Origin: Owenia fusiformis
Lineage: Eukaryota
Length of the DNA stretch: 64,000 nucleotides
Direction: 5' to 3'
NCBI GenBank assembly: GCA_903813345.2
Contig: CAIIXF020000001.1
Location: 28,644,001 to 28,708,000, forward strand
The notes below the pieces were generated by a model. That model worked only from the letters and a program-made list of their open reading frames with translations. It was not told the DNA's origin and searched no databases. The position numbers and the translations under genes are program-made. Shown one piece after another: positions 38,401 through 41,400 of this stretch. Within the stretch, counting starts at the first letter, position 1. Every line of letters begins with the position of its first letter.

Positions 38401-41400
38401 ATAAATTAATTGGATGGGGATTAGGAGATAAATTAATTGGATGGGGCTTTCATCTTAAATGTGGAAAATGATAGATAAGATGCGCATGACATCATTGTTA
38501 TCTTAAATGGGTGAGAGATAAGATGCGCATGACATCATTGTTATCTTAAAAATCAAACATCAATTACTTCATCAAATAACTGAGAAAAAATTAATGTACA
38601 ATATTGTTTAATTTATTTGCATTTATTTTACAAACAAAAGTACCACATAATCTAATTAATCCTTATTATCACTAGCAGAATCATTGGTTTCATCAGATTC
38701 ATTATCACTAGATTCACTAGCTTCGTCATTGTCACTAGAGTCAGTATACGATTCATCTGAAACATTTGCATCATCATAAAGTCCTACATTAATAATGTCT
38801 TCTGTCATATAGTTGTGATGTAACATGGTCTTCTTAAAAGCATCTTCAAACGGTATGCCTGTACTCATTAATTGCTGGATGTCTACCATGATTTCTTTAT
38901 GTGTTGGACTACATTGTAAATCTAGTAAATCTTCAACTAAATATTTGTAGTATGTCTTAAACGTTTCTCTTATTTTGGGTAGGAATTTTTGATTCGCCAT
39001 ATATCTTCTATCATACTCAGAATTCCCCTTCTGTTTGTCTATATATTTTGCCTCTTGTTCTTCAATTTGATCTTTAAATTTATTAATAGCTTTATCCTTT
39101 AGCCGTATATACACAGGGTTTTCCTGAAACCCTTCAGTGCATAGCTTCTTCATTGGAGGGTCGTCTATATCCTCATTCAATGGACAGTTTTGGATATGAT
39201 TCTGTAGATCCATTCTTGATATTAACATGACGCCACAATAGTCACAATGACATATTTCTTTCATGTTGTAATTTTTGTTGTCAGAATGCATAACGTTGCT
39301 GGGGATAGTATCTTTTATACTCGCAGTGAACTTATATGGAGGTTTCATTATTGAAGTATCATACTGTGACATCTCTTTAAATGGGTTTTCAATAGCATTC
39401 AAATCATATGGTAGTGCTATGTCATTGGATTGTACTGTCTTAGTAAATGGTTCTCCCTTTAGATGACTACTATCATGCTCATTCATTGTTTGATGAGTCT
39501 TATCATAACACAGTCTTAAATGCTCTGGGGTTTCTTGCTTTAGATCAATCAGTAAATGCCCATATGGTTTTAGAGTAGCTGCATTATAAGCATCTAAGAG
39601 TTTGTGACTGTTCCCAGGATACATCTGCTGAGAAAGTACTCTTACTTGGTTTTGATCTCTTGGATTCTTGTACAATACAATGTAATGTGTATTCAAGCTG
39701 ATGGTTCGATTCTCCCTTCCATGATGGAAGATATTCTGCAGTAAACAGATTACACTCAGGTTTCTGTGATGACTCCCTTTAGTAAACAAATCAGAGATCT
39801 TCCTGTCTTTGGTAGCATCTGACATCAAGTCATCAACAATCATTAAATTACGCACTCTAGGATTTAAGAAATCTGGACTGTTTAATTCATCTGGAATTCC
39901 CATCATGAATTCTATTCCAGGATGTATGTTCTTAATCTCTATGTAAAGTGGTTGCCATTGTCCAAAACACCAGATAATACGCTGTGGAGGGGGTTGGATG
40001 CGTTGCTCTACATTTTCCAAAAGTTGCTTGACAAAGGTAGTTTTCCCACAGCCTGTGGGACCAGTGACCAACATGGTAAAGGGGTGATGCAACACTTTGT
40101 CCATACCTACATGTATGTCTTCTTTACCTAGTGCAGAGTGCATGCCTTTGTGTCTCGCTAAACTTGAAGCATGTCTAAATTCTTTACCGCAATGACAGTA
40201 ATACATGTTACTGCCTCAAAGACTGATAACAAAATGGATGCAATTCATAATTCCGTTCTGTTATGTATATGTGTTCAAAGGCATGTTCAATAATGCTAAT
40301 TTAAATGTATGCTAACAGATGCTAATGCTAATAGATGCTAATGGTAATGCTAAGTAATGCTAACAGATGCTAATGCTAATGCTAACAGATACTAATGCTA
40401 ATGCTAACACGTGCTAACATATGCTAATGCTAATAGATGCTAATGGTAATGCTAACAGATGCTAATGCTAATGCTAACAGATACTAATGCTAATGCTAAC
40501 AGATGCTAATGCTAATAGATGCTAATGGTAATGCTAAGTAATGCTAACAGATACTAACATATGCTAATGATGATGCTAACAGATGCTAATGGTAATGCTA
40601 ACAGATGCTAATGGTAATGCTAACAGATGCTAATGCTAATGCTAACAGATGCTTACATATGCTAATGATGATGCTAACAGATGCTAATGGTAATGCTAAC
40701 AGATGCTAATGCTAATGCTAACAGATGCTAACAGATACTAATGCTAACAGATGCTAACATATGCTAATGATGATGCTAACAGATGCTAATGGTAATGCTA
40801 ACAGATGCTAATGATAATGCTAACATATGCTAATGATAATGCTAACAGATGCTAATGAGGTAATGCTAACTAATGTTCATACATATTCAAACCATTTGTA
40901 AATGAACAACATTTGAAAAAAAAAACATTTGAAACTTTAGTTATTTATTTTTATTCATATCGTTCAGTATTATATACAAATAACTTTAATCGTCCATCCT
41001 TGCTGGGATACCAGGTGGTTTGTATAAGAATGTCCGTTTCTTTCTTGTATTCGAAGTGTTTTGTTTTTTCTGTTTAAATGGATGTTTCTTCTTTATATTT
41101 ACAGAGTTTTGTTGTTTCTCTTTAGATGGTCTATACTCTTCATATTTCATATCTTCATGTTGACGTTTCAATTGTGCCTTTGCTCTGTCGACAACTGCAG
41201 TCATGGGTGAAATGATTTGTACCGGTTTAGTATCTTCTTTAATGTCATCTATGCCTATCCACCCTCTTCCTGTTTGAGATACTTTCAATCTATTCTGTCT
41301 CCCAGCTCGAATAAGTTTCAACCAGTGTTCTGGGTTGTCTACATATGGTACTAGTTTCATGGTTTTTAGTTGATGTGTATATATCAAGTATGAGGATTGA

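What the first reader, a model, noticed from the sequence alone, without database searches (positions are those of the whole stretch)
38656..40206. Packaging ATPase fused to two zinc fingers, a helical domain and an acidic tail
Seen: the ATPase core spans only ~aa 38-235. It is preceded by a C2H2 finger and followed by ~280 aa containing a CxxC..H...C finger, a PPMKK NLS-like motif and a D/E/S tail. Known: A32-type ATPases are usually compact. Inference: the added DNA-binding modules could give the motor specificity for this element, or let it interfere with a helper.
Basis: partly seen in the sequence, partly recalled or inferred. Interest (0 to 1): 0.7.

Follow-up and report, generated by a model that had tools for sequence, protein, structure and literature searches.

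The report
Viral packaging motor reads own barcode
A tiny virus-like transposon in a marine invertebrate carries a DNA-packaging motor whose zinc finger matches, by the known finger code, a repeat array lying right beside its own gene; finger and array change together between lineages, and gene-less parasites collect several arrays, which points to a barcode system for choosing which DNA is mobilised.

Summary
The 516-aa ORF and its four modules are real. It sits in a 4,013-bp two-gene Maverick/Polinton derivative (226-bp TIRs, 6-bp TSD, 9 intact copies). The fusion is not special to this element: it marks a whole clade, including a 14.5-kb element with all core genes and mussel and pearl-oyster proteins. 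Earlier scan notes saw the fusion and the minis elsewhere in this genome.

New here: the N-terminal finger co-varies with a tandem array just upstream of its gene. With a rule from published finger tables, 12 of 12 lineages with strong arrays match (15.5 of 18 overall, permutation p 5e-5). This element's HASSLAR finger pairs with its ATGCTA array. That pairing is inferred from co-variation, not from the tables.

Two-gene minis keep the ATPase under purifying selection (core dN/dS 0.1-0.2). Several share their ends and core-protein gene with helpers whose ATPase lacks a finger. All 6 ATPase-less foldback copies examined carry three different arrays.

Best reading: a lock-and-key address that selects DNA for packaging, as in phage satellites. 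The main rival is promoter autoregulation. Binding and packaging are untested.

The parts
38288..38293 (.). left target-site duplication TCTCTG
   Evidence: identical 6-mer on both flanks
38294..38519 (+). left TIR, 226 bp, begins AGTAGA
   Evidence: about 91% like the ends of the 14.5-kb element and of 8.5-kb polymerase-less elements
38656..40206 (-). finger-ATPase-finger-helical domain-acidic tail fusion ORF, 516 aa
40138..40200 (-). finger 1 (aa 3-23), recognition helix HASSLAR; predicted reader of the array
   Evidence: R at helix position 6 in 73 of 76 relatives
39499..40095 (-). A32/FtsK-HerA packaging ATPase core (aa 38-236)
   Evidence: Pox_A32 above cutoff; best solved match STIV B204 packaging NTPase
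39259..39477 (-). disordered linker (aa 244-316), weakly constrained
   Evidence: pLDDT under 50; dN/dS about 0.6 between mini subfamilies
39184..39246 (-). finger 2, CxxC-x12-H-x3-C (aa 321-341), role unknown
38767..39117 (-). conserved all-helical domain (aa 364-480), no known family or fold found
38659..38766 (-). acidic D/E/S tail (aa 481-516)
40310..40886 (.). ATGCTA tandem array, ending about 110 nt upstream of finger 1; proposed address
40986..41360 (-). 124-aa basic ORF, homolog of the small gene between minor and major capsid genes of larger elements (PW by gene order); probable core protein
   Evidence: dN/dS 0.16-0.39
42081..42306 (-). right TIR
42307..42312 (.). right target-site duplication TCTCTG

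Best explanation
The protein is the packaging ATPase of one Maverick/Polinton clade, fitted with a swappable DNA-reading finger. Each lineage carries, just upstream of the gene, a tandem array of that finger's 3-4-bp site. SHOWN by sequence: the architecture, its spread, purifying selection in minis, the finger-array match, and three arrays in ATPase-less copies. INFERRED: one finger binds weakly, but an oligomeric ring (oligomer state recalled for the family) presents several fingers to dozens of sites, so it captures DNA that bears its own array and feeds it to a helper's capsid. This 4-kb mini uses a helper's polymerase, integrase and capsid through helper-like ends and a helper-like core protein. 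It supplies its own motor and address (GCT-type, against the GTT-type array of its closest helper) and so favours its own DNA. Gene-less foldbacks freeload by carrying several addresses. The helical domain probably couples motor to capsid or to other subunits (untested).
For: Finger-array match: 15.5 of 18 lineages against a permutation mean of 7.0, p 5e-5; excess over each locus's own coding region p 2e-5; 12 of 12 strong arrays match, and 0 of 18 coding regions have such peaks. Rule taken from published tables. Sister switch in family G: RKDILLR with GCG-dominant arrays in 13 of 14 copies, RKDSLLR with GTG-dominant arrays in 5 of 6 (one event). H-x-S-S helices pair with ATGCT arrays in 3 lineages (A, B2, L228), H-x-T-S helices with TGTTCA arrays. 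No array before 10 of 10 compact ATPases or 8 of 8 finger-bearing PolB genes. 6 of 6 ATPase-less foldbacks examined hold all three array types; 2 of them have no gene at all. ATPase core dN/dS 0.10-0.11 at dS about 0.5 among mini-only subfamilies B1/B2/C, 0.13 in G, 0.23 in this family (LRT). Minis G, B2 and C share 95-99% terminal DNA with larger elements whose ATPase is compact. Precedent: adenovirus IVa2 binds repeated A-repeats.
Against: No binding or packaging data. The arrays lie 70-250 nt upstream of the start in most lineages, exactly where an operator would be. They are internal (kilobases from the ends) and on either strand, unlike the terminal adenovirus signal, which fails beyond about 300 bp. 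Capsid-less PolB elements also keep the fusion, and the C91 element keeps finger and C-domain without the ATPase core. Misses: L180 and L195; weak or no array in L185, L158, L153 and E2; L229 has H at -1 with a GAG array; L129 is reversed. The coding-region control was itself above chance (9 of 18, p 0.024). H at -1, as in this window's finger, is not assigned in the tables I read, and ATGCTA also offers GCA on the other strand. ATPase-less foldbacks have spread, so the gene is not needed in cis.
Confidence: 0.55

Rival explanations
1. Finger 1 binds the array, but as a transcription control: the ATPase fusion regulates its own promoter. Foldbacks carry arrays as decoys that derepress helpers, or as leftovers.
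For: The array ends 74-249 nt before the finger in most lineages; orientation is free; acidic tail and basic patch resemble a transcription factor; the C91 element keeps finger, C-domain and tail without the ATPase.
Against: Gene-less copies L250 and L251 hold three arrays from three families with no gene to regulate. Finger-bearing PolB genes have no arrays (0 of 8). Autoregulation alone does not explain why minis keep a selected ATPase core while borrowing everything else.
Confidence: 0.25
2. The array recruits the translocase for an intracellular step (excision, replication of the linear or foldback intermediate, or delivery to the integrase), not for filling capsids.
For: Capsid-less PolB-ATPase-integrase and ATPase-integrase elements keep the fusion; FtsK loads on internal sites through a fused reader domain (recalled).
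Against: The fold's best solved match is a virion packaging NTPase. Several mini families keep the ATPase together with a probable virion core gene that groups with the helper's, which makes most sense inside a particle.
Confidence: 0.13
3. Finger and array are only inherited together as one DNA block; there is no binding, and the minis are recent deletion products.
For: They are adjacent; a few ancestral types could account for many rows; base composition gives part of the signal.
Against: Linkage does not predict that three array types each match the published code (GAG, GCG, GTG), that GTG types occur in three separate lineages (K, G2, L147), or the G1/G2 switch. Selection acted over dS about 0.5 among minis that share one rearranged gene order.
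Confidence: 0.07

Closest known systems
Mavericks/Polintons (polintoviruses, adintoviruses)
   Same: AGT-type termini, TIRs, 6-bp TSD, A32/FtsK-like ATPase; larger relatives show the order integrase, minor capsid, small ORF, major capsid, protease described for vertebrate Mavericks (PMC8097293 section 7).
   Different: This element is 4 kb with two genes. In the passages read the ATPase is a stand-alone gene (atp, pm and pz are separate in vertebrates); no finger fusion or cognate array appears. Whether the C-domain is related to PM or PZ could not be tested.
Adenovirus IVa2 with the A-repeat packaging sequence
   Same: A packaging ATPase of the same superfamily binds a repeated cis element (PMC4189039 passages).
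Phage satellites (Vibrio PLE; SaPI/PICI small terminase, recalled)
   Same: Satellite-encoded packaging specifiers and pac-site mimicry (PMC11071384 abstract) parallel own-motor minis and multi-array foldbacks.
   Different: Bacterial tailed phages with terminase and no homology; those are shown by experiment, this is not.
Non-autonomous TIR derivatives (MITE-like)
   Same: Ends borrowed from an autonomous partner; many dispersed copies with TSDs.
   Different: Ordinary derivatives lose coding constraint; these keep a selected ATPase and core gene.
FtsK gamma domain with KOPS; PRDM9 (both recalled, not tested)
   Same: A DNA pump with a fused site reader; finger and target changing together.
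   Different: No sequence or fold link was tested or found.

Membership tests
Maverick/Polinton (autonomous) | TIRs with AGT-type ends and 6-bp TSD | tested here: met
   (10 of 10 related elements checked have perfect 6-bp TSDs)
Maverick/Polinton (autonomous) | encodes protein-primed PolB and RVE integrase | tested here: not met
   only two ORFs in 4,013 bp; both genes occur in related elements. It is a non-autonomous derivative.
Maverick/Polinton (autonomous) | major and minor capsid proteins and protease | tested here: not met
   absent from the element
A32/FtsK-HerA packaging ATPase | Walker A and B, arginine-finger motif, family profile and fold | tested here: met
A32/FtsK-HerA packaging ATPase | ATP-driven DNA translocation into capsids | not testable with these tools
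   no assay
DNA-reading C2H2 finger (finger 1) | base-contact residues at -1, 3 and 6 that follow the code | tested here: met
   R6 in 73 of 76; position 3 is N, S, D, A or V in 75 of 76; array match. This window's H at -1 is outside the tables read.
DNA-reading C2H2 finger (finger 1) | measured sequence-specific binding | not testable with these tools
   needs EMSA, SELEX or one-hybrid
Satellite with its own packaging specifier (PLE/PICI-like) | lacks replication and capsid genes; shares cis ends with a helper | tested here: met
Satellite with its own packaging specifier (PLE/PICI-like) | encoded factor under selection that marks its own DNA | tested here: inconclusive
   selection and finger-array match shown; role in packaging inferred
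Satellite with its own packaging specifier (PLE/PICI-like) | packaged in helper particles; lowers helper yield | not testable with these tools
   no particle data
Known fold or family for the C-terminal helical domain | significant structural or profile match | tested here: inconclusive
   best VIA Z 7.5 over 65 residues of generic helices; no BFVD hit at E 0.001 or better; no Pfam hit
Maverick PW protein (small ORF) | lies between minor and major capsid genes | tested here: met
   homolog in that position in the larger elements against PMC8097293; no sequence comparison with named PW was possible

The most novel reading that the evidence does not exclude
An animal genome hosts a community of complementing Maverick pieces (complete, capsid-only, polymerase-only, motor-plus-core minis, gene-less foldbacks) that compete through a reprogrammable packaging barcode: a single swappable zinc finger on the motor and a co-evolving tandem array. 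Minis bring this motor to unrelated helpers whose own motor has no reader, and cheaters stack several barcodes. It would be a eukaryotic counterpart of phage-satellite packaging piracy and the first candidate packaging signal for Polintons that I could find.
Probability: 0.45. Interest if true: 0.92.

Novelty: new variant of a known kind. Interest (0 to 1): 0.8.

Why it matters
How Mavericks/Polintons choose DNA for their presumed virions is unknown, and a 2023 preprint notes that Polinton virions had not been observed. A finger whose code predicts a neighbouring array gives a concrete, cheap binding test and a way to predict which elements can be mobilised by which motor. It would also explain why tiny derivatives keep a motor gene under selection, and it offers a natural library of single-finger and site pairs that evolved together.

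Tried and rejected
One-off deletion junction: rejected. Fusion special to minis: rejected. Single origin of all two-gene minis on the ATPase tree: rejected (AU p 0.0013 for 8 rows; p 0.053 for A+B+C alone, so that subset is open). Decayed PolB in capsid-less elements: the breaks are mostly GT-AG introns at shared positions. TIR as finger target: no GCT enrichment. Arrays before every finger gene: none before PolB. Fold of the C-domain: nothing significant; Atlas gave unnamed clusters and generic fingers and nothing usable for the small ORF. RNA: no RNA holder on record; three raw RNA runs gave 16, 42 and 12 reads over the ATPase region in 11-13 million records, copies not separable, strand unresolved, so not used as evidence. 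IMG/VR gave 1 locus, with a compact ATPase. Omega values could not be parsed from the codon-model output, so dN/dS figures are pairwise counts; the LRT used a coarse kappa grid and an assumed parameter order. A finger match inside the L228 array was spurious and dropped. PMC7293014 was not read.

Full report
Observation. The ORF 38656-40206 (minus strand) encodes 516 aa without stops. Pfam finds Pox_A32 above cutoff and a sub-threshold C2H2 at aa 5-23. An AlphaFold model from 66 sequences gives four confident modules: finger 1, ATPase (aa 35-243), finger 2 and a helical domain (aa 364-480), joined by disordered stretches. The best solved match is the packaging NTPase B204 of STIV2. The helical domain folds confidently alone but has no significant match. 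The NLS reading is weak (19 of 34 relatives with a basic cluster).

The element. The ORF lies in a 4,013-bp unit (38294-42306) with 226-bp TIRs and a TCTCTG duplication. Its only other gene is a 124-aa basic ORF, homologous to the small gene between minor and major capsid genes of larger elements, which is PW by gene order in vertebrate Mavericks (PMC8097293). Between the genes lies a 570-bp ATGCTA array. Nine full copies have intact ORFs at 97.9-100% identity; the 5 whose ends I checked have distinct 6-bp TSDs.

The fusion is a clade trait. Of 245 ATPase candidates in the genome 150 were scored; by eye 124 lie in frames of 400 aa or more, 13 are compact (221-241 aa) and 13 truncated. Long forms group apart from compact ones (100/100, midpoint root). 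They occur in a 14,521-bp element with PolB, integrase, capsid genes and protease, in 8-10-kb polymerase-less elements, in 9-10-kb capsid-less PolB elements, in 4.4-kb ATPase-integrase elements and in several ATPase-plus-core minis. Named relatives come from Mytilus and Pinctada. A C-domain profile hits 775 clusters at E 1e-10 or better, some only through the finger; among the top 150, 54 of 54 with room for it also carry the ATPase.

Selection in minis. Pairwise dN/dS of the ATPase core is 0.10-0.11 at dS about 0.5 among subfamilies B1, B2 and C (12 intact copies), 0.13 between G1 and G2, and 0.23 among the 9 copies of this family. The C-domain gives 0.21-0.36 and the linker about 0.6 between subfamilies (broken copies left out). 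Codon models reject neutrality (p 0.02 for this family, 1e-26 for the B/C core, with caveats given under Tried and rejected). None of the 16 B/C loci appears in the capsid or PolB search lists, and the four B/C copies read in full share one convergent gene order. The selection therefore most likely acted in the mini state, although unsampled parents cannot be excluded. Minis do not form one clade (AU p 0.0013).

Finger 1 and the array. Most families have a tandem array just upstream of the ATPase start, and its sequence differs between families. I formed the idea on this genome's families (note), then added 98 loci from other collections. The rule (R6=G, R-1=G; position 3: N=A, D/E=C, S/A=T, H=G) was taken from published module tables (PMC3607563 Table 2; PMC1920264 Table 1) after I had seen some arrays, so the test is not fully blind. 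Of 130 loci, 50 had a detected finger (1 spurious). 25 had R at -1 and 6 with at least 200 nt upstream; 4 were dropped because I or V at position 3 was not in my rule; 21 collapsed to 18 lineages. The predicted GNG triplet was the top one in 15.5 of 18 (permutation mean 7.0, p 5e-5; 12.5 of 15 at stricter clustering). The coding-region control gave 9 of 18 (p 0.024), showing a composition effect. After subtracting each locus's own coding peak, p was 2e-5; 12 of 12 strong arrays matched, 6 of them from other organisms' contigs, and 0 of 18 coding regions had such peaks. Misses were L180 and L195; L185, L158, L153 and E2 have weak or no arrays; L229 and L129 do not fit. In family G one residue change (I to S) goes with a shift from GCG- to GTG-dominant arrays (13 of 14 and 5 of 6 copies; one event). 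This window's helix, HASSLAR, has H at -1, which the tables do not assign. H-x-S-S helices pair with ATGCT arrays in three lineages (A, B2, L228) and H-x-T-S helices with TGTTCA arrays (B1, C, D and the 14.5-kb element), which fits G(C/T)T; GCA on the other strand is an alternative reading. Controls: no array before 10 of 10 compact ATPases or 8 of 8 finger-bearing PolB genes. Across relatives finger 1 keeps R6 (73 of 76) while positions -1, 2 and 3 vary; finger 2 has a different, more fixed pattern.

What the array is for. All 6 ATPase-less foldback copies examined carry the ATGCTA, TGTTCA and GAG arrays together; two of them (L250, L251, about 4.3 kb, with TSDs) have no gene. I examined 6 of about 14 such foldbacks listed. 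Minis resemble helpers at their ends: G is 98.6% identical over 648 bp to a 15-kb compact-ATPase element, B2 95.6% over 1,554 bp to an 18-kb one, and B/C core proteins group with compact-clade cores (100/99). This window's family has ends (about 91%) and core protein closest to the 14.5-kb element and its polymerase-less kin, yet its ATPase is synonymous-saturated against theirs and its finger and array differ. So ends and core track the helper, while motor, finger and array travel as a private cassette. That is the logic of phage satellites with packaging specifiers and pac mimicry (PMC11071384 abstract), and it resembles IVa2 binding to A-repeats (PMC4189039). Against it: the array sits where an operator would, is internal and lies on either strand; capsid-less elements keep the fusion; and a 7.7-kb element keeps PolB plus finger and C-domain without the ATPase core (C-domain dN/dS 0.19-0.42). 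I put sequence-specific binding at about 0.85 and packaging selection as its role at 0.55.

Novelty. Searches listed no paper on a finger-fused Maverick ATPase, a cognate array or Maverick satellites. I read passages of PMC8502044, PMC11131425, PMC3671162, PMC4028283, PMC8097293 (plus section 7), PMC4189039, PMC1920264, PMC3607563 and bioRxiv 2023.08.22.554363 and 2025.04.19.649669, and the abstract of PMC11071384. No supplements were read; those of PMC8502044 and PMC8097293 may show such ORFs. Repbase and subscription papers are not in the library. Earlier scan notes describe the fusion, a mini, a foldback and a polymerase-less element in this genome; their summaries do not mention the finger-array match, and two word searches found nothing. 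FtsK/KOPS, SaPI terminase and PRDM9 comparisons are recalled.

Verdict. Observation confirmed. The fusion itself is standard for its clade, but it carries a finger-and-array address that co-evolves and that parasites appear to copy. New variant of a known kind, interest 0.8.

Noticed in passing
L057, L058, L060, L065, L066, L101-L105: A capsid-less Maverick lineage has GT-AG introns in PolB at shared positions, and in some families an intron between finger 1 and Walker A of the ATPase; intact vertebrate Mavericks are reported as intronless.
   Followed up: partly
L142:5334 to L143:3050 (C91): 7.7-kb element with 1,140-bp TIRs, PolB and a 318-aa finger plus C-domain ORF lacking the ATPase core, with a (GAG)n array; a second similar frame lies at C11:3.25 Mb.
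   Followed up: partly
L011, L015, L016, L020, L250, L251: Foldback elements of about 4-6 kb; sizes cluster rather than shrinking to MITE size, which may reflect a lower size limit or a search bias.
   Followed up: partly
window 40138-40200 against L101 PolB start: This family's C-x-C finger closely resembles the N-terminal fingers of PolB in the capsid-less lineage, suggesting the finger was taken from a PolB gene.
   Followed up: no
L001 against L005: Copies of the same mini carry two terminal variants, one matching the 14.5-kb element and one the polymerase-less elements, which suggests exchange of ends.
   Followed up: partly
L196:1405-1974, L241:7477-7923: C-domain encoded on the strand opposite the ATPase, apparently as a separate frame.
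   Followed up: no
L201: Long CAG-rich poly-glutamine-like stretch between finger 1 and the ATPase.
   Followed up: no
L233-L249: Maverick ATPases occur in contigs of bacterial MAGs, probably host contamination.
   Followed up: no
window 31066-31380 (+): 104-aa ORF with a signal-peptide-like start, dibasic sites and an amidation motif, resembling an egg-laying-hormone/CRF-type neuropeptide precursor (recalled); no Pfam hit.
   Followed up: no
window 42508-43180 and 47233-47529: A 318-bp GC-rich unit in two tandem copies just right of the element and again near 47.3 kb.
   Followed up: no
L102:8799 to L060:1632: About 1.1-kb insertion with short inverted ends inside the PolB gene of one family-F copy.
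   Followed up: no
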